From positions 1-51,327 of IMG/VR virus record IMGVR_UViG_3300043640_000192: DNA of 51,327 nt. The stretch is one strand, 5' to 3'. This DNA is from a virus. How positions within the stretch are numbered: position 1 is the first letter of the stretch; the number at the start of each line of letters is the position of its first letter. Shown piece by piece: positions 1 to 12,811 of the stretch. The position numbers and the translations under genes are program-made. The notes under the pieces are model-generated. The model had not been told where the DNA came from, did no database searches, and was given only the letters and a program-made list of their open reading frames with translations.

Positions 1-117
1 AGGTGCTGGATGACCCGGACCAGCCGTGGAACCCGATGCGGGCCCGGATCTACTTCTACGGCCGGCAGATGTCCCGCGACGAGCTGTTCCACATCCGGGC
101 GTTCAGCGTGCCGGGGA
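1..117. repeat. Terminal overlap copy 1 (identical to 51211-51327); marks a circular/permuted assembly
   Basis: Read directly: 'aggtgctggatgacccggaccagccgtgg...ttcagcgtgccgggga' occurs at both window ends and lies inside the portal ORF. Unit length is 51210 bp. Confidence 0.95.
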
Positions 118-995
118 AGCTGGCGGGGCTGTCACCGCTGCGGCTGTTCATGAACCTGATCAGCTCCGGGAACGACGCGCTGGAGTACGGCGCGTCGTGG
201 TACCGGGCGGGCGGCTGGCCGCCGGGGACGTTCCAGAACTCCGAGACCGAGGTTGAGCCGGAGCAGGCGAACGAGATCCGTAACCGGCTGACCCAGGCGA
301 TCCGCCGCCGCGAGCCGCTGGTGTACGGCCGGGACTGGGACTACAAGCCGGTATCGGTGCCGCCGTCGGAGGCGCAGTTCATCGAGGCGATGCAGCTGAA
401 CGCCACCCAGATCGCGGCGGTCCTGGGGCTGCCCCCGGAGCGGATCGGCGGCAAGCGCGGCGACTCGCTCACCTATTCGACGCAGGAGGACGAGTCGATC
501 TCGCTGATCACCGACACGCTGCGGCCGTGGCTGGTGCGGATCGAGACGGCCCTGTTCGACGTGCTGCCCGCGCAGCAGTACGTGCGGTTCAACGCGGACG
601 CGATGCTGAAGACGAACACCGAGACGCGGCACAAGATCTACCAGGTGGACCGGGACATCGGCCTGAAGACGGTCAATGAGATCCGGGAGCTCGAGGAGAT
701 GGAGCCGCTCGCGGGCGGCGGGGTCGGAACGGACCCGCTGCCGCTGCAGGTGCTGGTGGCGATGGCCCGCGGCATCAAGGAGATCCCGAAGTCCTTCGAG
801 CAGCTGGTGACCGAGGGGCCGGCGGACCAGCTGGCACGGGAGCAGGCGGCGGTGCTGGCGAAGGAAGCCGCCGCGCAGCCCGCCGCCCCGCCCCCGCCGG
901 TGTACCCCGCGGCCCCGGCCGCGGTGAACGGGAGCGGGGCGCCAGTGAACGGGAAGGCCCCGGCGATGAACGGGAACGGGAACGGACATGGCTGA
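3..995 (+). CDS. Portal protein, C-terminal part (HK97-family portal)
   Basis: ORF track 330 aa. The ORF is open at the window start and is followed by protease and capsid genes in the canonical order. Confidence 0.85.
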   Translation: MLDDPDQPWNPMRARIYFYGRQMSRDELFHIRAFSVPGKLAGLSPLRLFMNLISSGNDALEYGASWYRAGGWPPGTFQNSETEVEPEQANEIRNRLTQAIRRREPLVYGRDWDYKPVSVPPSEAQFIEAMQLNATQIAAVLGLPPERIGGKRGDSLTYSTQEDESISLITDTLRPWLVRIETALFDVLPAQQYVRFNADAMLKTNTETRHKIYQVDRDIGLKTVNEIRELEEMEPLAGGGVGTDPLPLQVLVAMARGIKEIPKSFEQLVTEGPADQLAREQAAVLAKEAAAQPAAPPPPVYPAAPAAVNGSGAPVNGKAPAMNGNGNGHG

Positions 996-1941
996 GCTTT
1001 CGACCGGCTCCATCAATGACCTGCCGGACGCCGATTTCGCCTTCATCGAGAGCGGCGGCACGAAGGACAGCTCAGGGAAGACCACGCCGCGGTCGCTGCG
1101 GCACTTCCCGATCCACGACGCCGCGCACGTCCGTAACGCGCTGGCGCGGGCCCCGCAATCACCGTTTGGAGACAAGGCGATGCCGAAGATCAGGGCAGCA
1201 GCTGCGAAGTTCGGCGTGACCGTCAGCGATTCCGGCCGGGCTGCCGCCGACCCGGCGGGTGAGCCGGAACGCCGGTACACGCCGGGTCTCATCGAGACGC
1301 GGGCCGCGGCGGACGGCCAGAAGATCGGCGGCTACGGCGCGGTGTTCGGGAAACTGTCCCGCAACCTCGGCGGGTTCGTCGAGCAGGTCGGCACGGGCGC
1401 GTTCAACCAGTCCCGCGCGCTCGGCTGGCCGAACGTGATCTGCCGGTACAACCACGACGCGAACATGGTGCTCGGCACGACCGCCGGCCAGACCCTGCAG
1501 CTGCGCACCGACGGCACCGGCCTGGACTACGAGGTGGACCCGCCGAAGGCCCGCGCCGACATCCTCGAGCTCGTCCAGCGCCACGACATCCAGTTCAGCT
1601 CGTTCGCGTTCCGGGTGCCGCCGGGTGGTGACGAGTGGTCGGTGACGGACCAGAACTACCCGATGCGGACCCTGCACGAGGTGCAGCTGGTGGACGTTGC
1701 CCCGGTGCTCGATCCCGCCTATCCCGACGCGAGTGCGGGGCTGCGGTCGCTGGCGCTGGCGAAGGAAGTGGAGCTCGAGGAGGTCGTCAGCCTGGCCGCG
1801 CAGGACGAGCTGCGCCGGTTCTTCATCCGCACCGACAACCGGGGTGCCCCGGTGAAGCCGCCGCAGCCGAAGATCACCGGGGCGGCCGCGATGATGAAGC
1901 TGATGGAGAAGCGCCGCGACCCGTTCGCTGACCAGGGGTAA
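988..1941 (+). CDS. Prohead (capsid maturation) protease, HK97/S78 family, with N-terminal extension
   Basis: 'GGYGAVFGKLSRNLGGFVEQVGTGAF...RYNHDANMVLGTT...LDYEVDPP...SSFAF' matches the HK97 protease pattern. The gene sits between portal and capsid. Confidence 0.85.
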   Translation: MAELSTGSINDLPDADFAFIESGGTKDSSGKTTPRSLRHFPIHDAAHVRNALARAPQSPFGDKAMPKIRAAAAKFGVTVSDSGRAAADPAGEPERRYTPGLIETRAAADGQKIGGYGAVFGKLSRNLGGFVEQVGTGAFNQSRALGWPNVICRYNHDANMVLGTTAGQTLQLRTDGTGLDYEVDPPKARADILELVQRHDIQFSSFAFRVPPGGDEWSVTDQNYPMRTLHEVQLVDVAPVLDPAYPDASAGLRSLALAKEVELEEVVSLAAQDELRRFFIRTDNRGAPVKPPQPKITGAAAMMKLMEKRRDPFADQG

Positions 1942-2024
1942 CGCGCTTTCACAACTGAATACCGAGGGCAGGCAACGCAACCACCCTCACGGCCAGTCAC
2001 CAGCACAAACTGAAGGGGAAGTCC

Positions 2025-3293
2025 GTGAGTGAGGTTGCGAAGAGGCTCCGTGACAGGCGCCTGAACGTGTGGAACGAGGCACGCAAGTACGTCGAGGACG
2101 CCGCCGATGAGAACCGCGAGATGACGCCGGAGGAGAACGGCGCCTGGGCGCGGCACATGGAGGAACTCGACAAGATCGACGAGAAGATCGGCGGCGTCCT
2201 CAAGGCCGAGAAGCGGTCGTCGGACACCGACGCCGCGTTCGACGCGATCGGCCGCAAGCCCGTCGAGCGCCGCGCCGGGGACGGTGCCTCCGCCGGGGGC
2301 TACGCGGACAGCAGCGGCAAGGACGCCGCCGCGGAGATCCGGGCGTTCCTGCGCGGCGAGACGAAGGCCGTCGAGCTGGCGCACAACACCGAGGGCCTCG
2401 GCCCGCTGAACTACCGCACCCTGCTGTCCAACACCGGCACGCCGACGGCGATCGTGCCGACCGACTTCTACGACCGGCTGATCGCCCACCTCATCGAGGT
2501 CAGCGGCATCATGCAGGCCGGGCCGACGGTGCTGAACACCGAGGGCGGCGAGACGCTGCAGATCCCGAAGACCACCGGCCACTCGACGGCGGCACTGACC
2601 GCCCAGTCCGGGACCCTGCCGACGTCCGACCCGGCGTTCGCGCTGTCCACCCTGACGTCGTTCAAGTACGGCATCATGCTGCAGCTCGGCCGTGAGCTGA
2701 TCGATGACTCCGGGGTGGACCTGATCGGCTACCTGGCCATGCAGGCCGGGCGTGCGGTCGGGAACGCGTTCGGCACCGACCTGGTCAACGGCAACGGCTC
2801 GTCCAAGCCTGCGGGCCTGATCTTCGCCACGTCGGCATCGCCGGGCGTGACGGGCGCCACCACCGGCCTGGCAGGTGCGCCGACGTACGCGAACCTGGTG
2901 GACCTGGAGTACTCGGTGATCGCCCCGTACCGCCAGTCCCGGTCGTGCTACTGGATGGCGGCGGACAAGACGATCGGCGGGTTCCGCAAGATCGTGGACG
3001 GGAACCAGCGCCCGATCTGGGAGCCGTCGGCGGTGCTGGGGTCGCCTGACCTGCTGCTGGGCAAGCCGATCGTCGCTGACCCGTTCATCCCGGCGTCGAC
3101 GACTGGCGCGTTCAGCGTCGCGTTCGGCGACTTCAGCCAGTTCTTCGTCCGGCTGGTTGGCGGGGTGCGGTTCGAGCGGTCGGACGACTTCGCGTTCGGC
3201 ACGGACCTGGTGACGTTCCGCTGCCTGCTCCGCGGTGACGGGGCGCTGGTCGATACCAACGCCGTGAAGCTCTACAAGGCCCCGACCACCTAA
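2025..3293 (+). CDS. Major capsid protein, HK97 fold
   Basis: 422 aa with an N-terminal coiled-coil delta-like domain rich in E/K/R, followed by an HK97-like body. Position is directly after the protease. SD 'gaagggga' lies upstream of the GTG start. Confidence 0.85.
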   Translation: MSEVAKRLRDRRLNVWNEARKYVEDAADENREMTPEENGAWARHMEELDKIDEKIGGVLKAEKRSSDTDAAFDAIGRKPVERRAGDGASAGGYADSSGKDAAAEIRAFLRGETKAVELAHNTEGLGPLNYRTLLSNTGTPTAIVPTDFYDRLIAHLIEVSGIMQAGPTVLNTEGGETLQIPKTTGHSTAALTAQSGTLPTSDPAFALSTLTSFKYGIMLQLGRELIDDSGVDLIGYLAMQAGRAVGNAFGTDLVNGNGSSKPAGLIFATSASPGVTGATTGLAGAPTYANLVDLEYSVIAPYRQSRSCYWMAADKTIGGFRKIVDGNQRPIWEPSAVLGSPDLLLGKPIVADPFIPASTTGAFSVAFGDFSQFFVRLVGGVRFERSDDFAFGTDLVTFRCLLRGDGALVDTNAVKLYKAPTT

Positions 3294-3569
3294 ATGTCGA
3301 ACCGCCGCCGCGTCAGGCAGCCCAGCGCGGGGCGGCAGCCGTGCGCACGCTGCGGCCGGGGCATCCGTCCCGGCCGCGGCGGCGCGGGCCTGCCTGACGG
3401 CCGGGCGGTGTGCGAGGCGTGCGTGGAGGGCGGGGCGCTCATACGGCGCCTGGACTGCGGCTGCGTGGGCATGCCGGGCATGACGATCATCCGTGAGGGC
3501 GGCATGTTCCGCTGCGCGAGGCATGTGTCCGCGGAGACCGCGGAGTACCTGACGACAAGGAAGGGCTGA
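3294..3569 (+). CDS. Cys-rich small protein (zinc-ribbon-like), unknown function
   Basis: ATG directly follows the capsid stop. High GC3 by eye. Contains CxxC pairs (CARCG, CEAC). Confidence 0.6.
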   Translation: MSNRRRVRQPSAGRQPCARCGRGIRPGRGGAGLPDGRAVCEACVEGGALIRRLDCGCVGMPGMTIIREGGMFRCARHVSAETAEYLTTRKG

Positions 3570-3573
3570 TCCC

Positions 3574-4089
3574 GTGACCACACCCAGTCCCGGATATGAC
3601 GGCGCGCCGTCGCGTGAGACCCCTGGTTATTCCGGCACGGCCCGCGGTGGTGACGCGACGGCTGAGCCTGGCCAGTACCCGGGTTCCCTGTTCGGCGTGG
3701 CCCTCCCGCCGGGTACCGGCGCCCCCGGCACCGCGGGCGCGTCCGGCGGGACTGACCCGACGAATGAGCCGGGGCAGCTGAACGAGGGGATCTCCGGTGA
3801 GGGCCCGGCGCAGACCGCTGACACGGGCGCGCCGGGGTCGGCTGGCGCGCAGGCCAGCGACGGCGGCGCGGACACGGTGAAGTTCACCCGGCCCGGCTCC
3901 TACCTGTCGGGCTCCTACGTGCAGGACACGGTGAACGACGACATCTCCGGCCCGAACGACTGGACGCAGGCGATCGACGGGTCGTACGCGGGCGGCGGCC
4001 CGCAGCTGCCGGGGATCAAGGGGAACGAGCCGACGTCGACCGGGTCCGGGCAGGGCCGGGTCATGCGCGGCGGGAGGAGCGTGAGCTGA
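3574..4089 (+). CDS. Gly/Pro/Thr/Ser-rich low-complexity protein, unknown function (possible virion-surface or glycan-acceptor protein)
   Basis: SD 'aaggaaggg' precedes the GTG start. High GC3. The N-terminal ~100 aa are low complexity. Confidence 0.6.
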   Translation: MTTPSPGYDGAPSRETPGYSGTARGGDATAEPGQYPGSLFGVALPPGTGAPGTAGASGGTDPTNEPGQLNEGISGEGPAQTADTGAPGSAGAQASDGGADTVKFTRPGSYLSGSYVQDTVNDDISGPNDWTQAIDGSYAGGGPQLPGIKGNEPTSTGSGQGRVMRGGRSVS

Positions 4090-4091
4090 GG

Positions 4092-4340
4092 ATGCAGGAT
4101 CTCTCAGGTGAGGCCAGGTTCGGCCCGTGGGCCACGTCGCAGGCCGGCGGCAACATGGTGTCCAGCAACGAGCAGGCGATGACGGCGCCGGGCAGTCAGC
4201 CGTCGGACCCGCTCCCCGACCGTGAGCACCAGGGCGACCCGGCCGTGCAGGCCAGCGCCACGCTGCCGGTGGGCACCGCGCCGTCGCGGCTGCCCATGGC
4301 GTACCAGCCGGTACCCGTGACATGGAAGGCGATGGACTGA
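4092..4340 (+). CDS. Hypothetical protein
   Basis: Track ORF in tight spacing within the late operon. No motif recognised. Confidence 0.5.
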   Translation: MQDLSGEARFGPWATSQAGGNMVSSNEQAMTAPGSQPSDPLPDREHQGDPAVQASATLPVGTAPSRLPMAYQPVPVTWKAMD

Positions 4341-4519
4341 TGGCTACCGCACCTGAGCCGGTCACTGCCGCACCCGACCAGCCCGGCCAGCCCTATGACG
4401 CGGCGGCCGGGGACGGTTCCATGCTCGGCCCGTGGGTGAAGCTGGCCAGCGGCCCGTGTGACATGTCCGGGAAGGTGTCCGGCGACTGGCCGTCGGACAG
4501 CGGCTGGCGGCAGACCTAG
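4340..4519 (+). CDS. Hypothetical protein
   Basis: ATGA stop/start overlap with the upstream gene. Same frame as track ORF 4322..4519. Confidence 0.45.
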   Translation: MATAPEPVTAAPDQPGQPYDAAAGDGSMLGPWVKLASGPCDMSGKVSGDWPSDSGWRQT

Positions 4520-4520
4520 C

Positions 4521-5051
4521 GTGCACCTGCCCTGGCGGCTCGTGGCACCTGGCGCGGGCCCGGGTATCAGCACGTCCGTCACCGCCGCGGAGGCCGCCCG
4601 GCTCCAGGCGCTCGCCGCCGGTAAGCGGGTGCTCGAGGTCGGCAGTGCGTTCGGGTACAGCGCCGTGACGATGGCCCTGGCCGGTGCCCAGGTGACAGCG
4701 GTGGACCCGCACGCCCAGATCGGCGGGTCGTTCGAGGCGATGACAGCCAACCTTGACGCCTACGGGGTGGCAGACCGGGTGGAGATGGTCCGGGAGCCGT
4801 CGCAGACGGCCCTGCCGCGGCTCGCGTCGCAGGACGCCCGGTTCGGGCTGATCTTCATCGACGGGGATCATCGGGCTCCCGGCGTGCGCCATGACATCGA
4901 GCAGGCGCTGAAGCTGCTGGAGCCGGGCGGCGTGCTGGCGGTGCATGACGTGGATGAGTGGTGCTGCTGCCCGGATGTGGGCCACGTGGCGGCGGAGATA
5001 TTCGGTGAGGGCCGCGAGATGGTGGATTCGATGATGCTGGTGAGCCCGTGA
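4521..5051 (+). CDS. Class I SAM-dependent methyltransferase (O-methyltransferase-like)
   Basis: 'VLEVGSAFGYSAVTMA' (SAM motif I) and 'LIFIDGDH'. GTG lies 1 nt after the upstream stop. Confidence 0.7.
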   Translation: MHLPWRLVAPGAGPGISTSVTAAEAARLQALAAGKRVLEVGSAFGYSAVTMALAGAQVTAVDPHAQIGGSFEAMTANLDAYGVADRVEMVREPSQTALPRLASQDARFGLIFIDGDHRAPGVRHDIEQALKLLEPGGVLAVHDVDEWCCCPDVGHVAAEIFGEGREMVDSMMLVSP

Positions 5052-5899
5052 AAGTCCTGGTCACCGGCAGCGCCGGGTTCATCGGCCGTCACCTGTCCGC
5101 CGAGCTGGCGCAGCGCGACCACGAGGTGGTCCCGTTCGACCGGCCGGGCCAGGACATCCGGTCGGCAGACGATACCGAGCGAGCCCTGTATGGCCGCGAC
5201 ATCGGCGCCGTGGTCAACCTGGCCGGGATGCTGGGAACCCCGGAGCTGCTCGGCGCCGAGCAGCAGGCCGCCGAGGTGAACATCCTGGGCGCGCTGAACA
5301 TCTACGACGCGGCGAAGCGTTACGGCGGCGTGCCGGTGGTGCAGATCGGCACCGGCCACAAGGGTCAGCCGAACCCGTACGCGATCACGAAGGCCTGCGC
5401 CGAGGACCTCGGCCTCGCCCGGGCCCGCTGGCTGGGCGAGAAGATCACCGTGGTCCGCGCCTACCACGTGTACGGCCCGGGCCAGATCCCGGGACCGCCG
5501 CACGGCCCCGCCTCGGTGCACAAGTTCTTCCCCACGTTCGCCTGCAACGCCCTCGAGGGCCTCCCGCTGGAGTTGTGCGGCGGCGGCGGCCAGCTCATCG
5601 ACCCGGTGCACGTCTCAGACGTGGCTGTAGCGCTCGCTGACGCGATAGGCGGCCCGTACGGCACGGTGACCGAGGCCGGATGCGGCAAGCCTGTCAGCGT
5701 CGCGCAGGTGGCTGCGGACATCGCCATCGCAGCCCGGTCCGGCTCGGCCGCGCTGGACGGAGCGCCCCGCCCGGGTGAGCCTGACTTCGCCGAGGTGGTC
5801 GCCGCGTCGCCGGTGTGCCGCAACCCGTGGCCCTACCTGGTCCCCGAGACGATCGACTGGTACCGGGAATGGCTGACCAGCCACTCGTCAGCGTCGTAA
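5048..5899 (+). CDS. NAD-dependent epimerase/dehydratase (extended SDR)
   Basis: 'VLVTGSAGFIG' Rossmann motif and 'YAITK' (YxxxK). GTGA overlap with the methyltransferase gene. Confidence 0.8.
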   Translation: MKVLVTGSAGFIGRHLSAELAQRDHEVVPFDRPGQDIRSADDTERALYGRDIGAVVNLAGMLGTPELLGAEQQAAEVNILGALNIYDAAKRYGGVPVVQIGTGHKGQPNPYAITKACAEDLGLARARWLGEKITVVRAYHVYGPGQIPGPPHGPASVHKFFPTFACNALEGLPLELCGGGGQLIDPVHVSDVAVALADAIGGPYGTVTEAGCGKPVSVAQVAADIAIAARSGSAALDGAPRPGEPDFAEVVAASPVCRNPWPYLVPETIDWYREWLTSHSSAS

Positions 5900-6474
5900 C
5901 GCCGACCTGGCGGCGGAACGACCTGCTGATCGGCCGCTGCATCGCCTCCGTCGGCGCCCAGACCCACGCCAGCATCCAGCACGTCGTCGTCTCCGACGGC
6001 CCGGACCCTGCGCTGGCCGCCAGGATGGCTGATCTTGGGGACCTGGTGACCTTCGAGGAACTTCCGGAGCATGACCCGGTCGCCAGGTGGGGCCACCGCG
6101 CCCGGCTGCGCGGCCTGGAACTCGCCAAGGGCGATTACATCGCCTACCTGGACGACGACAACGCGTTCCGCCCAGATCACGTCGCCCGCCTCGCCGCGGC
6201 ACTGGAGGCGGACCCGGGTGCCGGGTTCGCCTACAGCCTGATCCAGATGAACGGCCACGGGCCTGCGTACATCGTCGGGGCGGACCCGCCGTTCTGCGGC
6301 GGCATCGACACGTCCGCGATCATGCACCGCCGCACCCTGCTGGAAACGGCCACGTGGCGGGACGAGGGGTGGCAGGAAACCGTGGACTGGGACCTGGTGG
6401 CCCGCTGGATGTCCGCCGGGATCACCTGGGCGTTCGACGGCGAGATCACCGCCGACTACTACTTCAGCGGCTGA
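5869..6474 (+). CDS. Glycosyltransferase family 2 (GT-A fold)
   Basis: 'VSVVTPTWRR...CIASVGAQT...VVVSDG' and a 'DDD' acidic (DxD-type) motif. ATG at 5869 lies within the 3' end of the epimerase gene. Confidence 0.75.
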   Translation: MADQPLVSVVTPTWRRNDLLIGRCIASVGAQTHASIQHVVVSDGPDPALAARMADLGDLVTFEELPEHDPVARWGHRARLRGLELAKGDYIAYLDDDNAFRPDHVARLAAALEADPGAGFAYSLIQMNGHGPAYIVGADPPFCGGIDTSAIMHRRTLLETATWRDEGWQETVDWDLVARWMSAGITWAFDGEITADYYFSG

Positions 6475-7472
6475 TGAGGATCTTCGCCGGGCACGACGGC
6501 TCCGGCTGCGCCTGGTACCGGGTGATCCTGCCCCTGGAGGAACTGGGCCGCCACGGCCACGATGTGACCCTGGTTTCCGCCGACCAGAGCGACGGCCCGG
6601 GTGTCACTGCCGGCCAGGTCACCGGGCAGGACATCGTCATCGCCCAGCGGTGGGACAACCACGCCGGGATGGGCACCTGGCGGCGGATGGCCGCCCATTC
6701 GAAGCTGGTGTACGAGGTGGACGACGATGTCCAGGCCGTCGAGCCGGTCAACTGGGCCGCGTACACCCGGTACTCCCGGGCCGACGCGCAGGACGCGGTG
6801 GCGCACTCCGCGCAGGTCGCGAACCTGGTCACGGTCACCACGGAGCCGCTCGCCGAGGTGATGCGGGAGCACAACCCGAATGTGGCGGTCCTGCCGAACT
6901 TCATCCCCGGCTGGGTGTGTGACCTGCCGCGGGCCGTCCGGGAACGGCCCCGGGTCGGGTGGATGGGCGGCGCGTCCCACGGCCGGGACATCGGCGTGAT
7001 CGCCGCGCCGCTGCGCCGGTTCCTGAACCGTTTCCCCGGCTGGGACGGGCACCTGGGCGGCGTGGACTACCGGCCTACGATCCGCCATGAGCGGGTCACG
7101 TTCAGCCCCTGGTCACACGTGGTCGCTGACCCGGAGGCGTATTACCAGTCGGTGGACCTGGACATCGGCCTGGCGCCGCTGGTCCTGACGAAGTTCGCCC
7201 GGTCCAAGAGCGCGATCAAGGCGCTGGAGTACGCGGCCCGCGGCATCCCGGTGATCGCGACCGACTCGGAGCCGTACCGGGATTTCGTCCTGCACGGCGT
7301 GACCGGGTTCCTGGTCCGCCGCGACCACGAATGGCTGAAGTACATGTCGGAGCTGGCCGCTGACGGCGGGCTGCGCGAGTCGATGGGCGCGAAGGCCCGC
7401 GAGCTGGCCCGGGCGCACACGATCGAGCACGGATACAAGCTCTGGGAATCCGCCTACGGAGGTCTGCTGTGA
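6474..7472 (+). CDS. GT-B fold glycosyltransferase (GT1/GT4-like)
   Basis: ATGA overlap with the GT2 gene. C-terminal 'KSAIKALEYAARGIPVIATDSEPYRDFVLHGVTGFLV' is a typical GT-B donor-binding region. The track ORF 6087.. is an over-extension. Confidence 0.75.
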   Translation: MRIFAGHDGSGCAWYRVILPLEELGRHGHDVTLVSADQSDGPGVTAGQVTGQDIVIAQRWDNHAGMGTWRRMAAHSKLVYEVDDDVQAVEPVNWAAYTRYSRADAQDAVAHSAQVANLVTVTTEPLAEVMREHNPNVAVLPNFIPGWVCDLPRAVRERPRVGWMGGASHGRDIGVIAAPLRRFLNRFPGWDGHLGGVDYRPTIRHERVTFSPWSHVVADPEAYYQSVDLDIGLAPLVLTKFARSKSAIKALEYAARGIPVIATDSEPYRDFVLHGVTGFLVRRDHEWLKYMSELAADGGLRESMGAKARELARAHTIEHGYKLWESAYGGLL

Positions 7473-7687
7473 AGATCCGGATGCTCGAGGAACGGACCGG
7501 CCCGCGGCACGACGGCCGGATGTGGCCACCGGTCGGCGGCGAGATCGACGTGGACGACGAGGAAGGCGCGGCGGTGTGCGCGGCCGGATGGGCGCAGCCG
7601 GTCGCGCAGGAACGCAAGGCGGAGACCCGGCCCGCGCCGGATGCAGCTGAGAAGCGGACCGCGGCAAAGCCCGCGGCGAAGAGCTAA
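7469..7687 (+). CDS. Hypothetical protein
   Basis: GTGA overlap with the upstream gene. 72 aa. No motif recognised. Confidence 0.5.
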   Translation: MKIRMLEERTGPRHDGRMWPPVGGEIDVDDEEGAAVCAAGWAQPVAQERKAETRPAPDAAEKRTAAKPAAKS

Positions 7688-7701
7688 GGACGGGCTGACA
7701 G

Positions 7702-8217
7702 ATGGCACTGGCACGCGCATACAAGGTCGGCGTCTTCGACACCTCGACCCCCCTGGCCACCGGCGCCACGTCCACGGTGACCACTCCTATCCCGATCCTG
7801 TACGGGGTGACCACGGCCACCGCTGACTGCTACATCTCCGCCGTCCGGTGCAGCGTCCTGGGGGCGGCGGCGTTCCCGTCGAACGCGTCGGTGGTGTTCT
7901 CGCTGAACATCAACACCGGCGCGCAGGCCGGCGGTAACACGGCACTGGCCCGGCAGCTGGCCGGTAACGCGCTGGCCGCGAACACGCTGTTCAAGACGGC
8001 GGGCGGCACGTCCGCGGCGGCGATCACCGGCCTGACGATGACCACTGAGCTGTGGGCGCAGTCGGTGCCGTTCACCGCCGGGTCGAACTGGGGTGAGTGG
8101 AAGACGCCGGGGTTCGAGATCCCGGTCCCCATCTCCACGCAGTTCGCGCTGTTCGTGACGGCGTCGTCTGCGGGGACGGGCACGACGTTCGCCGGCGAGA
8201 TCGAGTTCACTGAGTGA
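7702..8217 (+). CDS. Hypothetical structural protein (predicted beta-rich)
   Basis: Track ORF of 171 aa with Thr/Ala/Ser-rich strand-like composition, located in the head/neck region. Confidence 0.5.
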   Translation: MALARAYKVGVFDTSTPLATGATSTVTTPIPILYGVTTATADCYISAVRCSVLGAAAFPSNASVVFSLNINTGAQAGGNTALARQLAGNALAANTLFKTAGGTSAAAITGLTMTTELWAQSVPFTAGSNWGEWKTPGFEIPVPISTQFALFVTASSAGTGTTFAGEIEFTE

Positions 8218-8260
8218 TGCCCCTCCGGTAGCTGAAGGGAGGTTGTGAGGGGAGGCCGCG

Positions 8261-9937
8261 GTGGCGATCACCCGCGTCAATAGCGCATCGATCACCGCCC
8301 GGGCCGCCGCCGCGTCGGCCACGGCCACGATCCCGGGCGGCACCGGCATCCAGGCCGGGGACCTGATCTACGTCTGCGCGGCCAGCAGCGGCACGCACGT
8401 CGCCAACACCATGTCCGTCCAGGACTCCGTCAACCTGACGCCGTTCACGAAGATCCTGGAGACCCAGCCGCCCGGTTCGGCGTTCTACCAGTCCACTCAC
8501 GTCTTCCAGACGCCTGTCAGCATCGCTGACGGCTCGACGATCACGCTGACCGGGTTCGCCGCGGCTACCGCCTGCGCGCTGGCGATCGACATTTTCCGCG
8601 GCGCGTCGGCGGTCATCGACCGGGCCGCGGTGGGTACCGGCAATGCGACGACCACCACGCCCGCGGGCCCGGCGCTGGGCGGGAACGCCACCGCGGGTGC
8701 GCTGGTCCTGACGACCTGCTCGACGGGTGCGACGGGGACCACGCAGGCGGCGGGGTCGCCGTTCACCGCGGGCAGCACGCAGGCCGTCTCCCCGGGCACC
8801 GGGATCGGCTTCGTCCTGTCGGCCAGCGGTTCCCTTACTTACGCCTCGACGTGGACGCTGGGCGTCACTTCGGTCAGCGCCACGCAGACGGTCTCCTTCC
8901 TGCCCGCCGCGGCCCCGGCTGCACAGCAGCGGAGCCGCCCGGTGATGGCCTCGCGGGCAGCGGGGATCCGGGGCTGGCTCGCCCGCCGCGCCGGGATCTT
9001 CGCCGGGACCGGCCCCGCCGTGCGGGCGCTCCACGGCCCGGTCCGCGCGCAGCCCGCCCGGACCCGCGGCGGGATCATCAGCCGCCGTGCTGGCATCTTC
9101 GCCGGGACCGGGCCGCCGTTGCGGGCACCTGATGGCCCGGTGCAGGCGCGGGCGCTCCCGCGGCGCGGCGGCAGCGTCAGCCACCGTGCCGGGACGCCCG
9201 CCACGGCGGCACCGCAGGCCGGGCCGCCGGTCTACCCGCTGCATGGCCCCGTGGCGGCCCGCAGGCTCCCGCAGCGCGGCGGGGATACCAGCAGCCGCGC
9301 CGGGACTTACGGCGGCACCGGGCCAGCGGTAAGGCCGCCAGACGGCCCGGTACGCGCGCAGCCCCCGCCGCAGCGCGGCGGGCGTACCGCCAGCCGGGCG
9401 GGGACGTTCACCGCGGTGTCCCTCACGTCAGGGCCGCCGGTCTATCCCCTGGGCCACCCGGTCCAGTCCCGCCGGCTGCCCGCCCGCGGCGGATCGGTAA
9501 GCCACCGCGCCGGGACGTTCGCGGGCTCGGGTCCTCCGGTCCCGGCGCTGAAGCAGCCGCTGGGCATCTACCGCCGCCAGCCACCCCCGCCAGCACGTGG
9601 CCGCGTCCTGTCGCTGGACGGGATACGGCAGGGCGCCGGGCCGGTGGTGCGGGCCCTGGACGGCCCGGTCCACGGCCAGCCGCAGAAGCCAGTGCTGTAC
9701 GGCCGGGCGGACAGCCGGGCGGGCATCGCGGTATTCGTGCCGCCACCAGTGCTCCAGAACGCTGCGAGCAGCCCCACGGTCACCGCCGGGGACACGTCCG
9801 CCGCCACGGCCACCGGAGCCGCCCACGGCACCACGCTGACCGCGCAGGGCACGTCAGCGGCCAGCGCCACCGGGCAGCCGGGCGCCAGCACTGTCACCCA
9901 GGCCGGAAGTTCTGGCCCCTCGGTATCAGACGGATAG
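8261..9937 (+). CDS. 558-aa protein: N-terminal beta-rich domain, central Arg-rich tandem repeats, Thr/Ser/Ala-rich C-terminus. Unknown function.
   Basis: SD 'gaggggagg' precedes the GTG start. The repeats were read directly from the translation. Confidence 0.7.
   Translation: MAITRVNSASITARAAAASATATIPGGTGIQAGDLIYVCAASSGTHVANTMSVQDSVNLTPFTKILETQPPGSAFYQSTHVFQTPVSIADGSTITLTGFAAATACALAIDIFRGASAVIDRAAVGTGNATTTTPAGPALGGNATAGALVLTTCSTGATGTTQAAGSPFTAGSTQAVSPGTGIGFVLSASGSLTYASTWTLGVTSVSATQTVSFLPAAAPAAQQRSRPVMASRAAGIRGWLARRAGIFAGTGPAVRALHGPVRAQPARTRGGIISRRAGIFAGTGPPLRAPDGPVQARALPRRGGSVSHRAGTPATAAPQAGPPVYPLHGPVAARRLPQRGGDTSSRAGTYGGTGPAVRPPDGPVRAQPPPQRGGRTASRAGTFTAVSLTSGPPVYPLGHPVQSRRLPARGGSVSHRAGTFAGSGPPVPALKQPLGIYRRQPPPPARGRVLSLDGIRQGAGPVVRALDGPVHGQPQKPVLYGRADSRAGIAVFVPPPVLQNAASSPTVTAGDTSAATATGAAHGTTLTAQGTSAASATGQPGASTVTQAGSSGPSVSDG
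8951..9751 (+). repeat. About 7.5 in-frame tandem repeats of 33-38 aa (consensus S-[RH]RAG-x-F-x-G-x-GP-x-V-x4-GPV-x5-P-x-RGG-x2-S)
   Basis: Example units: 'RRAGIFAGTGPAVRALHGPVRAQPARTRGGIIS', 'RRAGIFAGTGPPLRAPDGPVQARALPRRGGSVS', 'RAGTYGGTGPAVRPPDGPVRAQPPPQRGGRTAS'. The DNA copies are diverged. Confidence 0.85.
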
Positions 9938-9945
9938 GAGACCAG

Positions 9946-10854
9946 GTGTCAGCGACCGTCTTCTACTCCGGCGCCAGCGAGATCGCCACCCTCGCCAACA
10001 CGTTCAAGGTGAACGGCGTGGCCACCGACCCGACCGTGATCACGTGCGTCGTCACCGACCCCGCCGGCGGCCAGGTCACCTACGCCGTCACCGCCGGGCA
10101 GATCGTCCGCACCGGCACGGGTGTCTACACCCTGAACATCCCGTGCCTCCTCGACGGCATCTGGTCCTACGTGTGGATCGGCACCGGCACCGCCTCCGAC
10201 GTGGCCGCCGGGACGTGGACTGTCCAGCCCGTCACCGTCGGCCAGTATTACTGCACCGCCGAGGAACTGAAGTCGCGCCTGTCCATCACCGACACGTCCG
10301 ACGACGACCAGGTGATCCTCGCCTGCCAGGCCGCCTCCAGGTGGATCGAGGGCGCGACCGGCCGGTACTTCTGGCGGGGCACCGACACCCGCACCTACGT
10401 CCCGGAGAGCCTCTGGGGCCTGTCCACCGACGACCTGGTGTCCGTCACCACCCTGAAGACCGACGCGGACGGCGACGGGGTGTTCGAGACCACATGGACG
10501 GCGGGCACCGACTTCGAGCTGGCCCTGGGCGAGCGTGCCTACAACACGGGTGCGTCGGGGGAGCAGCGGCCCTACACCCAGATCCGGGTGACCGGCGGGA
10601 AGTTCTTCCCGTTCACGTGGGCGTTCACCCGCCAGGACCGCATCCAGGTCGTCGGCGTGTTCGGCTGGCCCGCGATCCCCCCCGCGGTCCGCCAGGCCGC
10701 CATGCAGCTCGCCGCCGACTATTTCAAGCTCAAAGATGCCCCGTTCGGCGTGGTCGGGTTCGGCGACATGGGCGTGGTCCGCGTCAAGCCGAACCCGCAG
10801 ATCTACGCCCTCCTGCAGCCCTACGTCCGCGGCAGCCGCAAGGTCGGGGTCTGA
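9946..10854 (+). CDS. Head-tail adaptor (gp6-like connector) with an extra ~100-aa N-terminal domain
   Basis: 'YCTAEELKSRLSITDTSDDDQVILACQAASRWIEGATGRYFW' is a typical gp6-type connector motif. It is preceded by an Ig-like looking N-terminal segment. Confidence 0.7.
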   Translation: MSATVFYSGASEIATLANTFKVNGVATDPTVITCVVTDPAGGQVTYAVTAGQIVRTGTGVYTLNIPCLLDGIWSYVWIGTGTASDVAAGTWTVQPVTVGQYYCTAEELKSRLSITDTSDDDQVILACQAASRWIEGATGRYFWRGTDTRTYVPESLWGLSTDDLVSVTTLKTDADGDGVFETTWTAGTDFELALGERAYNTGASGEQRPYTQIRVTGGKFFPFTWAFTRQDRIQVVGVFGWPAIPPAVRQAAMQLAADYFKLKDAPFGVVGFGDMGVVRVKPNPQIYALLQPYVRGSRKVGV

Positions 10855-11270
10855 TGGCCGTCCTGTCCGACGTCCGCGCCGCGCTCGCCGCCGCCGTCGA
10901 CGGCATCCCCGGCCTGCGCGCCACCGGATCCGTCACCGGCGAGGTCAGCCCGCCCATCGCCATCATCGTCCCCGCGCCCGGCACGTTCATCACCTACGGC
11001 GAGACCTTCGAGCCCGGCGTCGCCGGCTACCTCCTGGAGATCATCCTGCTCGTCTCCTACGCCGACGAGCGCAGCGGCCAGCTCCTCATCGACGGCTACC
11101 TGTCCGCCACCGGCCCCTCCTCGGTGCGCGCCGCCGTCGCTGCCGACCAGACCCTCGGCCACGTCGTGGACTACGCCGTCGTCACCACCGCCCAGACGTA
11201 CGGGCTGCTGGAGTGGGGTGGCGTCCAGTACCTCGGCGCCCGCCTGTCCGTCACGGCGGGGACCGAGTAA
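10854..11270 (+). CDS. Head-tail joining / tail-terminator-like protein
   Basis: ATGA overlap with the adaptor gene. 138 aa. Size and position fit a neck protein. Family not firmly recognised. Confidence 0.45.
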   Translation: MAVLSDVRAALAAAVDGIPGLRATGSVTGEVSPPIAIIVPAPGTFITYGETFEPGVAGYLLEIILLVSYADERSGQLLIDGYLSATGPSSVRAAVAADQTLGHVVDYAVVTTAQTYGLLEWGGVQYLGARLSVTAGTE

Positions 11271-11362
11271 TGCGGTGGCTGCGGCCTCCCGCTGAAGGGA
11301 GGTGGTGCCCGTGCGCTGGCTGCTAGTCCATCCAGGGCCGAATTTACTTCTCAGTCGCCGAC

Positions 11363-12370
11363 GTGTTCCGGGGCTGGTCCGAGGCGCTGACCGCCCTCGG
11401 CGAGCAGGTCATGGAATACAACCTCGACACCCGCCTCACCTTTTACGACGCGGCCATGATCGAGACCGGCACCTTCGACGATGACGGCCACACGCAGCTC
11501 CGCAAGGCCGTCACCCGGGAGCAGGCGGTCACGATGGCCGCCGACGGGCTCCTCGGCGCGGCCTACCGCTGGTGGCCGGACGTGATCCTCTGCACGTCGG
11601 CGTTCTTCACCCCGCCGTTCGTGCTGGAGGTCATGCGATCGCGCGGCCACAAGATCGTCATGCTGTTCACCGAGGGCCCGTACCAGACCGGCATGCAGCT
11701 GAAGATGGCGGAGTACGCGCACCTGTCCCTGGTGAACGACCCGTGCGACATAGAGAAGTACCGCGAACTCGGCCCGGCCGAGTACATGCCGCACGCCTAC
11801 CGCCCGGCCATCCACCATCCCGGCCCGGCGGTCCCGGAGCTGGCCTGTGACCTGGGATTCGTCGGTACCGGCTTCCCGTCCCGCATCGAGTTCCTCGAGG
11901 CGATGGACCTGGACGGGCTGGACGTGCTGCTGGCTGGGCACTGGCTGTCCCTGGCGGAGGACTCGCCGCTGCGCAGGCTCGTCGCCCACGACCTCGGCGA
12001 GTGCTTCGGCAACGACCAGGCCGCCGACGTGTATCGCTCGGCCCGGTGCGGCCTGAACCTGTACCGCCGCGAAGCCGAGGACGAGCACGCGGGCGAGGGC
12101 TGGGCGATGGGACCCCGCGAGGTGGAACTCGCCGCGTGCGGCACTTACTTCCTGCGGGACCCGCGGCCGGAATCGGATGAGCTGTTCCCGATGCTGCCCA
12201 GCTTCACCAGCCCGCAGGAGGCGTCGGAGCTGCTGCGCTGGGCGCTCGCCCACCCGCAGGAACGCGCCGAGGCTGCGCTGAAGGCCAGGTCCGCGATAGC
12301 CGGCCGCACGTTCGAAGCCAACGCCAGGTCATTGCTCCGGTTGCTCGACCGGCAGCCAGTCAGCAGGTAG
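11363..12370 (+). CDS. CgeB-like / Glyco_trans_1_2-type glycosyltransferase (body of the gene; the likely true start, GTG 11311, is in another frame)
   Basis: 'FVGTGFPSRIEFL', 'YRSARCGLNLYR', 'GPREVELAACGTYFL' resemble the CgeB/DUF3880 GT family. There is no SD before GTG 11363, whereas a strong SD precedes GTG 11311. Confidence 0.7.
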   Translation: MFRGWSEALTALGEQVMEYNLDTRLTFYDAAMIETGTFDDDGHTQLRKAVTREQAVTMAADGLLGAAYRWWPDVILCTSAFFTPPFVLEVMRSRGHKIVMLFTEGPYQTGMQLKMAEYAHLSLVNDPCDIEKYRELGPAEYMPHAYRPAIHHPGPAVPELACDLGFVGTGFPSRIEFLEAMDLDGLDVLLAGHWLSLAEDSPLRRLVAHDLGECFGNDQAADVYRSARCGLNLYRREAEDEHAGEGWAMGPREVELAACGTYFLRDPRPESDELFPMLPSFTSPQEASELLRWALAHPQERAEAALKARSAIAGRTFEANARSLLRLLDRQPVSR

Positions 12371-12388: not shown

Positions 12389-12811
12389 GTGGCAAGAATT
12401 CACGGCCGCAACGGCCAGGTGTACATGGGGATCGCCGCCGGGGCACTGGCGTCGCCGCTGCCGTTCCAGGCGTCCTGGACGATGAACATGGTCGTCAACA
12501 AGTCCGACGTCACTGCGTTCGGCGACGGCAACACCGTGTACGTTGCGGGCCTCCCCGACGCGAGCGGCGATTTTGGGGGCTTCATGGACGACGCGACCAG
12601 CCAGACCTACATCGCCGCCGTGGACGGATTGGCGCGCAACTTCTACCTCTATCCGAACATTACAGCAGATCCCTTGGTCTACTGGTTCGGAACTGTGCTC
12701 CCGGACTTTTCCGCTGACGGTGCTATTGGCGGTCCCGTTAACTTCAAATCAACTTGGAACGCTGCCTCGAAAGTGCAAAGGTATACGCAATGGGGCGGTT
12801 TGAATACCTGA
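12389..12811 (+). CDS. Major tail (tube) protein, putative
   Basis: 140 aa. '...WTMNMVVNKSDVTAFGDGNTVYVAGLPDASGDFGG' resembles siphovirus tube proteins. Position is upstream of the chaperone and tape measure genes. Confidence 0.5.
   Translation: MARIHGRNGQVYMGIAAGALASPLPFQASWTMNMVVNKSDVTAFGDGNTVYVAGLPDASGDFGGFMDDATSQTYIAAVDGLARNFYLYPNITADPLVYWFGTVLPDFSADGAIGGPVNFKSTWNAASKVQRYTQWGGLNT

What the first reader, a model, noticed from the sequence alone, without database searches (positions are those of the whole stretch)
4521..7472. Five-enzyme virion glycan-modification set inside the structural operon
Four translationally coupled genes (GTGA/ATGA or short coding overlaps) sit between the capsid and neck genes:
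- a SAM methyltransferase;
- an SDR epimerase/dehydratase ('GSAGFIG', 'YAITK');
- a GT2 ('DDD');
- a GT-B enzyme.

A third, CgeB-like GT (11311/11363-12370) sits between the neck and tail-tube genes.

Established knowledge: some mycobacteriophages (Che8, Corndog, Myrna are the published examples I recall) glycosylate capsid and tail tube using phage GTs.

Inference: a sugar-nucleotide-modifying enzyme plus a methyltransferase plus three GTs implies a more elaborate, possibly O-methylated, glycan. Possible acceptors lie next door: the Gly/Pro/Thr-rich protein 3574-4089, the Thr/Ser-rich tail of 8261-9937, the capsid and the tail tube.
Basis: partly seen in the sequence, partly recalled or inferred. 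Interest (0 to 1): 0.62.

Follow-up and report, generated by a model that had tools for sequence, protein, structure and literature searches.

The report
Phage virion sugar-coating gene set
A temperate soil phage of high-GC actinobacteria carries five sugar-handling enzyme genes inside its head and tail operon, most likely to coat its own capsid and tail tube with sugars, a trick already shown for mycobacterial phages; one of the five genes is broken by a 4-base gap that ribosomes probably skip.

Summary
All five genes pass Pfam's curated cut-offs: a Methyltransf_24 methyltransferase, an extended-SDR epimerase, a GT2, a GT4-like GT-B, and a CgeB-like GT-B. The first four are stop-start coupled, and all five sit in a promoter-free and terminator-free late operon.

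Virion glycosylation is the best reading, but it rests on indirect evidence:
- The CgeB-like gene lies next to the tail-tube gene in every relative tested (76/76, 22/22 and 21/21 loci).
- A variable sugar island follows the capsid gene in 25 of 29 relatives.
- 44 of 52 related capsid proteins end in Thr or Ser. The capsid and tube proteins of Che8 and Corndog end in Gly-Ser or Asp-Ser.

The enzymes are not orthologues of the mycobacteriophage ones. The set is no more elaborate than Corndog's methyltransferase plus three GTs.

New here: the third GT has a 4-nt TTA-led coding gap, shared by a relative in another metagenome sample. Other alleles have gaps of 6-18 nt at the same site, and some have an HNH endonuclease gene upstream. 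The portal gene has a similar 7-nt gap. This matches the UUA-triggered translational bypassing proposed for phiHau3 terminase.

The scan has noted virion-glycosylation cassettes on other DNA (211 findings).

Verdict: a new variant of a known kind.

The parts
2025..3293 (+). Major capsid protein (HK97 fold). It ends ...LYKAPTT and is the candidate C-terminal Thr acceptor.
   Evidence: Pfam Phage_capsid 2e-55. 44 of 52 distinct relatives end in T or S, typically G-[AP]-x-[TS].
3574..4089 (+). Conserved Gly/Pro/Thr-rich protein with no family hit. It always lies just after the capsid gene. Possible accessory protein or acceptor.
   Evidence: Present in 26 of 30 related loci. Conserved linear motifs PGQYP, GTGAPGT, DPTNEPGQ, GGPQLPGIKGNEP. 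No Pfam, PHROG or NCBIfam hit.
4521..5051 (+). Class I SAM methyltransferase (Methyltransf_24), a probable sugar O-methyltransferase.
   Evidence: Pfam 1.7e-20. Same Pfam family as the methyltransferase domain of Che8 gp108 and as Corndog gp35. Only 55% identical between this phage and its ~90% relative L004.
5048..5899 (+). Short extended-SDR nucleotide-sugar enzyme, most likely a 4-epimerase or reductase. It lacks the Asp-Glu pair that follows the catalytic Thr in 4,6-dehydratases.
   Evidence: Pfam Epimerase 9e-30. phrog_540 nucleotide-sugar epimerase 4e-35. Best solved relatives are MoeE5 and T. thermophilus UDP-glucose 4-epimerase. GSAGFIG, IGTG and YAITK read from the sequence.
5869..6474 (+). 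GT2 (GT-A) glycosyltransferase with a DDD (DxD) motif. Soluble.
   Evidence: Pfam Glycos_transf_2 3.4e-15. It is the only PF00535 match in the genome. No transmembrane-like segment.
6474..7472 (+). GT-B (GT4-like) glycosyltransferase.
   Evidence: Pfam Glycos_transf_1 1.3e-8. phrog_7162 4.4e-50. 34% identical to Streptomyces phage Zuko gp5. Homologues in L010-L012 carry a LAGLIDADG intein in the SK|SAIK motif.
7469..9937 (+). Three ORFs between the sugar genes and the adaptor: 7469-7687 (weak DUF7302 match), 7702-8217 (Ala/Thr-rich) and 8261-9937 (Arg-rich repeat protein with a Ser/Thr-rich tail). This is a swappable region.
   Evidence: In L004, 7702-9880 is replaced by three unrelated ORFs. 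Only the last ~56 nt of 8261-9937 are conserved. GC3 about 0.9 supports coding.
11271..11310 (+). Insert of about 41 nt relative to L004. It carries a strong ribosome-binding site (GAAGGGAGG) and follows a duplicated old GT3 start (ATG 11270, MRWL). It looks like the remnant of an HNH endonuclease cassette.
   Evidence: Alignment with L004. The same leader follows an HNH_3 gene in L123/L129, L131, L190 and L124.
11311..11343 (+). First 11 codons of the CgeB-like GT (VRWLLVHPGPN). They form beta-strand 1 of the N-terminal Rossmann domain.
   Evidence: The motif is conserved in all relatives. It is a strand at residues 2-7 in the AlphaFold model.
11344..11347 (+). 4-nt coding gap TTAC, led by the rare codon TTA. 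It separates the GT3 start from its body.
   Evidence: 4-nt insertion relative to L004. An identical gap occurs in L122 (78% identity, a different sample) and L131. Gaps of 6, 7, 15 and 18 nt, all TTA-led, sit at the same site in 10 other loci.
11348..12370 (+). Body of the CgeB-like GT-B glycosyltransferase (GT3), immediately upstream of the tail-tube gene.
   Evidence: Pfam Glyco_trans_1_2 1.4e-14. Every invariant column of the 14-sequence alignment is kept. AlphaFold pLDDT 85.6. Best PDB matches are the GT4 enzymes MshA, BshA and sucrose-phosphate synthase.
12389..12811 (+). Major tail (tube) protein. It ends ...WGGLNT and is the candidate acceptor of GT3.
   Evidence: phrog_10528. A GT3 homologue lies directly upstream in 76/76, 22/22 and 21/21 loci. 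46 of 76 tube proteins end in T or S, mostly G-[LI]-N-T.

Best explanation
The five genes are a phage-encoded system that glycosylates the phage's own particle in the cytoplasm late in infection.

**Capsid-side unit.** The methyltransferase, SDR enzyme, GT2 and GT-B are translated from the late structural transcript together with the capsid gene.
- The SDR enzyme converts a host nucleotide sugar into a rarer epimer.
- The GT2 and GT-B enzymes build a short glycan on a virion protein. The most likely site is the exposed C-terminal Thr tail of the capsid subunit (...APTT).
- The methyltransferase O-methylates a sugar.

**Tail-side unit.** The CgeB-like GT-B (GT3), which in relatives is always encoded directly in front of the tube gene, glycosylates the tube subunit (...GGLNT).

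**GT3 expression.** GT3 can be made full length only if ribosomes skip the 4-nt gap TTAC after codon 11. Peptidyl-tRNA-Asn would leave AAU while the rare UUA codon waits in the A site, then resume at UUC.

**What is shown and what is inferred.**
- Shown: gene identities, operon structure, synteny, conserved tails, and the conserved gap.
- Inferred: that the acceptors are virion proteins, which residues are modified, which sugars are used, and that bypassing occurs.
For: 1. All five families pass curated cut-offs. The GT3 fold is confirmed as GT-B/GT4-like.
2. The genes are stop-start coupled. No sigma-70-like promoter or intrinsic terminator lies on the + strand of 1-13,000.
3. None of the five has a transmembrane-like segment, so they are soluble enzymes acting in the cytoplasm.
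4. GT3 and the tube gene form an invariable pair: 76/76, 22/22 and 21/21 loci. This holds even in phages at 45% identity that have no room for a capsid-side island (L112-L120).
5. A sugar island follows the capsid gene in 25 of 29 relatives with at least 8 kb of downstream sequence. Its content varies and includes NDP-hexose C-methyltransferase, cupin and further Methyltransf_24 genes.
6. 44 of 52 distinct related capsid proteins end in T or S. The capsid and tube proteins of Che8 and Corndog end ...TGS...DGS...VGS and ...GDS.
7. The sugar genes diverge faster than the structural genes between this phage and L004: methyltransferase 55%, GT3 62% and GT2 77%, against 88-95% for structural genes. 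That is expected for a surface trait under diversifying selection.
8. Che8 and Corndog use the same Pfam families, Methyltransf_24 and GT2. Cluster O phages are described as carrying three GTs downstream of an O-methyltransferase that modify capsid and tube (PMC11600133).
9. An intein sits in the catalytic SK|SAIK motif of GT-B homologues, and an HNH cassette sits at the invariant HPGP motif of GT3. Selfish elements that persist in such sites usually mark genes the phage cannot afford to lose.
Against: - There is no biochemical evidence of any glycan.
- No relative without the enzymes was found, so the Thr tails could not be tested against a negative control. They may simply be a lineage trait.
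- 30 of 76 GT3-linked tube proteins do not end in T or S, so the C-terminal residue cannot be the universal GT3 acceptor.
- The enzymes share no detectable sequence similarity with the validated Che8 and Corndog enzymes.
- GT3 is frame-broken in this genome. It would be inactive if the gap is not bypassed.
- Freeman et al. 2023 could not be read here. The statement that glycans sit on the C-termini comes from my memory of its abstract.
Confidence: 0.6

Rival explanations
1. The enzymes glycosylate other virion parts and not the capsid and tube termini. Candidates are the conserved Gly/Pro/Thr-rich protein 3574-4089 and the Ser/Thr-rich tail of the repeat fibre protein 8261-9937.
For: - 3574-4089 accompanies the island in 26 of 30 loci and is 20% Ser+Thr.
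- 8261-9937 ends in a Ser/Thr-rich stretch.
- 30 of 76 tube proteins lack a terminal T or S.
Against: - 8261-9937 and 7702-8217 are replaced in the closest relative L004 while the enzymes stay.
- GT3 tracks the tube gene, not these genes.
Confidence: 0.15
2. The genes change the host envelope (cell-wall glycopolymer or lipoglycan). The purpose would be superinfection exclusion or easier release, as in lysogenic-conversion glycosyltransferases.
For: - The phage is temperate. It has a large serine recombinase at 31571-33145.
- Weak NCBIfam similarity of the GT2 to TuaG, EpsD and WcaA-type polysaccharide enzymes, all far below cut-off.
Against: - The genes are embedded in and translationally coupled to the late structural operon, far from the integrase and immunity region.
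- None of the five enzymes has a membrane segment, and no flippase or polyprenol-phosphate transferase was found among the neighbouring ORFs scanned.
- GT3 is bound to the tube gene in every relative.
Confidence: 0.1
3. In this particular genome the third GT is a dead gene. A 4-nt insertion frameshifts it, or it is an assembly error, so only four enzymes act.
For: - The frame break is real in the record.
- GTG 11363 has no ribosome-binding site, and a protein starting there would lack beta-strand 1.
Against: - The same AAT-TTA-C break occurs in L122 (78% amino-acid identity, another sample) and in L131.
- Ten further loci carry different TTA-led gaps at the same codon. Removing each gap restores the consensus sequence exactly.
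- The body keeps every invariant residue.
- The portal gene, which tailed phages need for head assembly (general knowledge), has the same kind of break.
Confidence: 0.2
4. The enzymes glycosylate phage DNA (hypermodified bases), as the T4 glucosyltransferases do.
For: GT-B enzymes glucosylate DNA in T-even phages (general knowledge).
Against: - No thymidylate-synthase-like hydroxymethylase is found anywhere in the genome. The same search matched 10 of 14 control genomes.
- The genes lie in the structural module, not the replication module.
- A sugar methyltransferase and an SDR enzyme have no role in the known DNA glucosylation systems.
Confidence: 0.03

Closest known systems
Virion O-glycosylation of mycobacteriophages Che8 (gp108-110), Corndog (gp35-38) and Myrna (Freeman et al. 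2023, Cell Host Microbe 31:1216; cited through PMC11600133 and PMC12363180)
   Same: - Phage-encoded GTs plus a Methyltransf_24 methyltransferase.
- In Corndog the genes also sit inside the structural operon, between portal and protease.
- Capsid and tube subunits end in a small residue followed by Ser or Thr.
- The host is an actinobacterium.
   Different: - No sequence similarity between the enzymes.
- Two GT-B (GT4-like/CgeB-like) enzymes here, against GT2-type and GT25 matches in Che8 and Corndog (one Corndog GT, gp36, has no Pfam hit).
- An added SDR sugar-nucleotide enzyme.
- The system is split into a capsid-adjacent island and a tube-adjacent GT.
- Thr tails here, not Gly-Ser tails.
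- One GT carries a coding gap.
- Nothing has been tested experimentally.
Streptomyces phages Zuko and KimJongPhill: gp5 glycosyltransferase next to gp4 UDP-glucose dehydrogenase
   Same: Closest isolated-phage relative of the GT-B 6474-7472, at 34% identity over 96% of its length. It is likewise paired with a sugar-nucleotide enzyme.
   Different: - The pair lies upstream of the terminase, not after the capsid gene.
- No methyltransferase, GT2 or CgeB-like GT lies in the region examined, the first 15.4 kb of the Zuko record.
- Function untested.
UUA-triggered translational bypassing proposed for the terminase genes of Streptomyces phage phiHau3, prophage StrepC.1 and a S. catenulae prophage (Smith et al. 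2013; Antonov et al. 2023, PMC10732093)
   Same: - An in-frame rare UUA is followed by a short non-coding block (7 or 10 nt there; 4 nt in GT3 and 7 nt in the portal here).
- The block breaks the frame at a junction that is conserved and uninterrupted in relatives.
   Different: - The genes affected here are a glycosyltransferase and a portal, not a terminase.
- There are many allelic gap variants at one site (4, 6, 7, 15 and 18 nt).
- Some alleles have an HNH endonuclease gene directly upstream.
Phage T4 gene 60 coding gap with the MobA HNH homing endonuclease cassette (Bonocora et al. 2011; bioRxiv 10.1101/2022.08.31.505936)
   Same: - A gap in a conserved motif lies next to an HNH gene.
- Take-off and landing codons match: CCN to CCN, GGT to GGC, CGA to CGC.
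   Different: - The gaps are 4-18 nt, not 50 nt.
- A rare sense codon follows the take-off codon, not a stop codon.
- No evidence here for a nascent-peptide signal or a take-off hairpin.
CgeB-family glycosyltransferases (Pfam PF13524)
   Same: The C-terminal domain of GT3 matches PF13524 at 1.4e-14. JGI names homologues 'spore maturation protein CgeB'.
   Different: The phage clade has its own invariant motifs (HPGP, TExPY, NDP, FVGTGFPSR) and is tied to tail-tube genes. It has no link to spore coats.

Membership tests
Actinobacteriophage virion glycosylation system (Che8/Corndog type) | Phage-encoded glycosyltransferases, with or without a sugar O-methyltransferase | tested here: met
   Three GTs and a Methyltransf_24 methyltransferase pass Pfam cut-offs. 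Che8 gp108 and Corndog gp35 carry the same methyltransferase family.
Actinobacteriophage virion glycosylation system (Che8/Corndog type) | Homology of the GTs to Che8 gp108-110 or Corndog gp36-38 | tested here: not met
   blastp of all window proteins against these proteins gave no significant match. tblastn of the GT2 and GT3 against 50,697 phage records found no actinophage.
Actinobacteriophage virion glycosylation system (Che8/Corndog type) | Capsid and tail-tube subunits with a C-terminal Ser/Thr acceptor tail | tested here: met
   Capsid ends APTT and tube ends GLNT. 44 of 52 related capsids and 46 of 76 related tubes end in T or S. This shows sequence only, not modification.
Actinobacteriophage virion glycosylation system (Che8/Corndog type) | Glycan demonstrably attached to virion proteins | not testable with these tools
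   This needs MS or glycoprotein staining of virions. The phage is known only from a metagenome.
Extended SDR nucleotide-sugar epimerase/dehydratase | GxxGxxG NAD site, catalytic Ser/Thr and YxxxK; Pfam PF01370 | tested here: met
   GSAGFIG, IGTG and YAITK. PF01370 at 104 bits. The Asp-Glu pair typical of 4,6-dehydratases is absent after the Thr, as read from the sequence.
GT2 (GT-A fold) | PF00535 match with a DxD motif | tested here: met
   56.8 bits. YLDDDN.
GT-B / GT4-like retaining glycosyltransferases | Two Rossmann-like domains, with a C-terminal Glycos_transf_1-type nucleotide-sugar domain | tested here: met
   - GT-B 6474-7472: PF00534, PF13692 and PF13524 hits.
- GT3: AlphaFold pLDDT 85.6, Foldseek probability 1.00 to MshA, BshA, sucrose-phosphate synthase and PglA.
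- Retaining chemistry is inferred from these matches, not tested.
UUA-mediated translational bypass (phiHau3 terminase type) | In-frame UUA followed by a short frame-breaking block at a junction that relatives keep uninterrupted | tested here: met
   - GT3: AAT [TTAC] TTC at 11341-11350.
- Portal: CGA [TTACCGC] CCC at 50840-50852.
- In the 80 best viral-contig loci, 9 are interrupted, 45 were scored uninterrupted and 4 gave no usable match; I read the remaining 22 from three-frame translations as uninterrupted.
- Removing the gap gives the consensus sequence.
UUA-mediated translational bypass (phiHau3 terminase type) | Full-length protein is made across the gap | not testable with these tools
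   This needs a reporter assay or MS.
T4 gene 60 / MobA-type mobile bypass cassette | Homing endonuclease gene adjacent to the gap-bearing allele only | tested here: inconclusive
   - An HNH_3 gene lies directly upstream of GT3 in 4 distinct interrupted alleles (L123/L129, L131, L190, L124).
- It was not detected beside any locus I read as uninterrupted (about 67).
- The window's own GT3 keeps only an insert of about 41 nt upstream of the gene.
- An HNH-like ORF (50005-50703, minus strand) lies beside the portal gap, but Pfam gave only a weak HTH_38 hit for it.

The most novel reading that the evidence does not exclude
The tail-tube glycosyltransferase and the portal of this phage would be made only by ribosomes that hop over TTA-led coding gaps of 4 and 7 nt. 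These gaps would be the self-protection scars of HNH homing-endonuclease cassettes that target invariant motifs, as with T4 MobA and gene 60. Because UUA decoding in actinomycetes depends on the growth-phase-regulated bldA tRNA, virion assembly and tail glycosylation would be coupled to the physiological state of the host. This would extend UUA-triggered bypassing from three terminase genes to other late genes and to many uncultivated actinophages.
Probability: 0.4. Interest if true: 0.75.

Novelty: new variant of a known kind. Interest (0 to 1): 0.5.

Why it matters
Glycosylation of phage particles has been shown experimentally only for mycobacteriophages, where it blunts antibody recognition. 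The following would matter if true:
- A large, uncultivated family of soil actinophages (455 viral contigs encode a GT3 relative; 165 encode a relative of the capsid protein) would carry a different, non-orthologous enzyme set for the same purpose.
- That set would be organised as target-adjacent modules: a variable sugar island after the capsid gene, and a dedicated GT fused in synteny to the tube gene.
- Virion glycosylation would then be a convergent and widespread trait whose role must lie in soil ecology (adsorption, stability, escape from host or predator recognition), not in mammalian immunity.
- The TTA-led gap in the tube-linked GT offers a second, independent gene family, with many natural allelic variants, in which to test UUA-triggered translational bypassing. 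That mechanism currently rests on three terminase genes.

Tried and rejected
1. Megablast of 4400-12400 against isolated phages gave no match. The closest isolated capsid is 31% identical, so no cultured relative exists to lean on.
2. The Freeman et al. 2023 paper is not held. Two other papers searched for C-terminal glycan details gave nothing useful.
3. I looked for tube-gene relatives without GT3 as a negative control. None exist among 21 loci. Likewise, no capsid relative clearly lacks the island. The co-occurrence test of tails against enzymes was therefore impossible.
4. A terminal Thr as the universal GT3 acceptor is rejected, because 30 of 76 tubes end otherwise.
5. A simple +1 frameshift at TTA is judged less likely than hopping:
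   - In L123 the +1 codon is TAG.
   - In L124 and L125 the gaps are in frame but contain TAG or TGA.
   - Only hopping restores the consensus without extra residues.
6. A phage-encoded suppressor tRNA is rejected. There are no tRNA genes.
7. DNA glucosylation is rejected. There is no hydroxymethylase-like gene.
9. phmmer of the GT-B against PDB sequences gave no hit.

Full report
**What the window is.**
The window is a complete 51,327-bp viral genome from IMG/VR with 117-bp direct terminal repeats and about 70% G+C. It encodes a large serine recombinase, YqaJ/RecT recombination genes and a siphovirus-type tail module, so it is a temperate siphophage.

No isolated phage is close. Megablast found nothing, and the best isolated capsid is 31% identical. 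Relatives are uncultivated viral contigs, plus contigs of a Micromonosporaceae MAG and a Trebonia MAG. This points to a soil actinomycete host.

**Checking the observation.**
On the + strand the gene order is:
- portal (wraps the record ends);
- protease/scaffold 988-1941;
- capsid 2025-3293;
- four small ORFs 3294-4519;
- methyltransferase 4521-5051;
- SDR 5048-5899;
- GT2 5869-6474;
- GT-B 6474-7472;
- three ORFs 7469-9937;
- adaptor 9946-10854;
- a 137-aa neck ORF 10857-11270;
- the CgeB-like GT (GT3);
- tube 12389-12811.

All five enzymes exceed Pfam's curated cut-offs, and PHROG and NCBIfam agree. The overlaps GTGA, TGATG and a 31-nt overlap are as described. The + strand of 1-13,000 has no promoter-like or terminator-like site. 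None of the five has a transmembrane-like segment.

**Is it a virion system?**
Three lines of comparative evidence bear on this.

1. GT3 is tied to the tube gene.
   - In 22 loci found with the window protein, in 76 of 76 loci found with a family profile that have enough downstream DNA, and in 21 of 21 loci found starting from the tube protein, the two genes are neighbours. The usual spacing is 2-25 nt.
   - This holds in phages at 45% identity whose capsid and adaptor genes are only about 900 nt apart, so they have no capsid-side island (L112-L120).
2. The other four genes belong to a variable island that follows the capsid gene.
   - 25 of 29 relatives with at least 8 kb of downstream sequence have a GT2 or GT-B homologue there.
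   - The island's content changes between relatives. It includes NDP-hexose C-methyltransferase (Methyltransf_13/14), cupin, extra Methyltransf_24 genes and Ig-like TIG/PKD proteins.
   - Between this phage and its closest relative L004, structural proteins are 88-95% identical. The methyltransferase is 55%, GT3 62% and GT2 77% identical, and two ORFs are swapped outright.
3. The capsid and tube proteins have conserved C-terminal tails.
   - 44 of 52 distinct related capsid proteins end in Thr or Ser after a G-[AP]-x motif. 46 of 76 tube proteins end in Thr or Ser, mostly G-[LI]-N-T.
   - The capsid and tube proteins of Che8 and Corndog end ...TGS...DGS...VGS and ...GDS.
   - From my memory of the Freeman et al. 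2023 abstract, glycans there are attached to the C-termini of capsid and tube subunits. I could not read the paper.

**Limits of that evidence.**
No relative lacking the enzymes was found, so the tails have no negative control. In addition, 30 of 76 GT3-linked tubes do not end in Thr or Ser. The C-terminal residue is therefore a candidate acceptor, not a rule.

**Comparison with the known systems.**
Corndog gp35-38 (O-methyltransferase plus three GTs) lie between portal and protease. Che8 gp108-110 lie at the right end of its genome. Their Pfam content is Methyltransf_24/TylF, GT2 and GT25.

The window shares the methyltransferase family and the GT2 family. It shows no pairwise similarity to any of those proteins. 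It uses two GT-B enzymes and adds an SDR enzyme.

The AlphaFold model of GT3 (pLDDT 85.6, pTM 0.84) is a GT-B. Its nearest solved structures are GT4 enzymes: MshA, BshA, sucrose-phosphate synthase, GlgM and PglA, with the protein O-GlcNAc transferase SdgB further down the list. The fold does not reveal the acceptor.

The SDR enzyme is closest to MoeE5 and GalE-type 4-epimerases. It lacks the dehydratase Asp-Glu pair. The claim that the set is 'more elaborate' than the published cases is therefore not supported. It is a non-orthologous, differently organised version.

**Rivals.**
- Host-envelope modification is unlikely. The enzymes are soluble, no flippase or polyprenol-phosphate transferase was found among the neighbouring ORFs scanned, and the genes are coupled to late structural genes far from the integrase.
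- DNA glucosylation is unlikely. No thymidylate-synthase-like hydroxymethylase is present.
- Glycosylation of the Gly/Pro/Thr-rich protein 3574-4089 (conserved in 26 of 30 loci) or of the fibre-like 8261-9937 cannot be excluded.

**The third GT is interrupted.**
All uninterrupted relatives begin (M/V)RWL(L/V)(V/I)HPGP(N/S)(F/W)SVADV. In the window, GTG 11311 (preceded by GAAGGGAGG) encodes VRWLLVHPGPN. Then TTA-C follows, and the body continues in the +1 frame.

Relative to L004 there is a 4-nt insertion, plus an insertion of about 41 nt upstream that duplicates the old start. The model places residues 2-7 as beta-strand 1 of the N-terminal domain, so a product starting at GTG 11363 would lack a core strand.

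The break is not private to this record. The alleles seen are:

| Locus | Sequence at the gap | Note |
|---|---|---|
| Window, L122, L131 | AAT [TTAC] TTC | L122 is 78% identical and from another sample |
| L123/L129, L175 | CCG [TTAG CCG] AAY | |
| L202/L204, L190 | CCT [TTAG CCC] | |
| L177 | CCT [TTAG CCT] | |
| L183 | CAT [TTAG CGC] TTC | |
| L196 | GGT [TTA GGC] CCC | |
| L124 | CCT [TTA CGG CGG ATA TAG CCC] AAC | in-frame TAG |
| L125 | CCT [TTA GGG TGA GCG CCC] AAC | in-frame TGA |

Every gap starts with an in-frame TTA. In most alleles the last three bases of the gap are a synonym of the codon before it, and in the window, L122, L131 and L183 they match it in two of three positions. 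Deleting the gap restores the consensus protein with no extra residue. The window's GT3 body keeps all invariant residues.

The portal gene shows the same pattern. ATG 50774 reads ...VPWR, then CGA [TTAC CGC] CCC TGG..., while relatives read VPWRPWDS without interruption. No other in-frame TTA codon turned up in a + strand gene apart from one at 22535, and the phage has no tRNA genes.

An HNH_3 endonuclease gene lies directly upstream of GT3 in four distinct interrupted alleles. It lies upstream of none of about 67 uninterrupted ones. The window keeps only the cassette's 3' leader.

**How the gap fits the literature.**
UUA-triggered translational bypassing was proposed for the phiHau3, StrepC.1 and S. 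catenulae terminase genes, with 7-nt and 10-nt blocks, and was supported experimentally in 2023 (PMC10732093). The T4 gene 60/MobA cassette links a bypass gap to an HNH homing endonuclease.

I therefore read the GT3 gap as a probable bypass site of the phiHau3 type, in a new gene family and with an HNH link. A dead gene or an assembly error is the rival, at about 0.2.

**Earlier notes of this scan.**
I confirmed both and added the allelic series and the HNH link.

The scan has recorded virion-glycosylation cassettes with C-terminal tags on other DNA, in 211 findings. It has also recorded several bypass candidates. This is thus a recurrent theme of the scan, though still unproven outside mycobacteriophages.

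**Verdict.**
- The most likely function is cytoplasmic O-glycosylation of capsid and tube subunits by a non-orthologous, two-module enzyme set (confidence 0.6).
- It is a new variant of a known kind, of moderate interest. A more novel side result is the TTA-led coding gap.

Noticed in passing
window 50774-50852 and 50005-50703 (minus strand): The portal gene is broken like GT3. ATG 50774 reads ...VPWR (CGA at 50840-50842), then the 7-nt block TTACCGC (50843-50849), then CCC TGG GAC in the +1 frame. Relatives read VPWRPWDS without a break. An ORF with an HNH-like motif (...DRIDNDGNYEPGNCRWAT...) lies just upstream on the opposite strand, but Pfam gave it only a weak HTH_38 hit.
   Followed up: partly
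L010:10001-12145, L011:8001-10110, L012 (homologues of window 6474-7472): The GT-B homologue carries an in-frame insert of about 390 aa with intein hallmarks: Cys at the start (CIDS), a LAGLFEADG homing-endonuclease motif, and HN followed by Ser at the end. It splits the conserved SK|SAIKA motif.
   Followed up: partly
window 7702-9880 versus L004 8279-11040: The closest relative (about 90% identical elsewhere) replaces ORFs 7702-8217 and 8261-9937 with three unrelated ORFs of 148, 195 and 580 aa. The 580-aa ORF has long Ala/Thr repeats. Only the last ~56 nt (...SASDG or ...SVSDG) are shared, so this is a swappable fibre or decoration slot.
   Followed up: partly
L021:16312-17670, L057:19797-20459, L041:5217-5915, L078:11541-13544: The capsid-side islands of relatives carry further genes: an NDP-hexose C-methyltransferase (Methyltransf_13/14), a cupin, a TIG+PKD Ig-like protein and, oddly, a 667-aa protein with an animal haem peroxidase match (6.6e-10).
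   Followed up: no
window 3574-4089: A Gly/Pro/Thr-rich 171-aa protein is conserved in 26 of 30 related loci. It has short invariant motifs (PGQYP, GTGAPGT, DPTNEPGQ, GGPQLPGIKGNEP, RGGR) and matches no known family. It is probably disordered. Its role is unknown.
   Followed up: partly
window 22535-22537: This is the only other in-frame TTA found in a + strand gene (CGA TTA TCC). Its preceding codon is the same as at the portal gap. Here the frame is the same on both sides.
   Followed up: no
window 40296-40697: A second HNH_3-type endonuclease homologue, 39% identical to the HNH that sits upstream of interrupted GT3 alleles in L123. It lies in the early or replication arm.
   Followed up: no
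L038 (capsid gene end, about 2434): One relative's capsid ORF reads past the usual ...GASS end for about 38 more codons. This may be a lost stop codon or a sequencing error.
   Followed up: no
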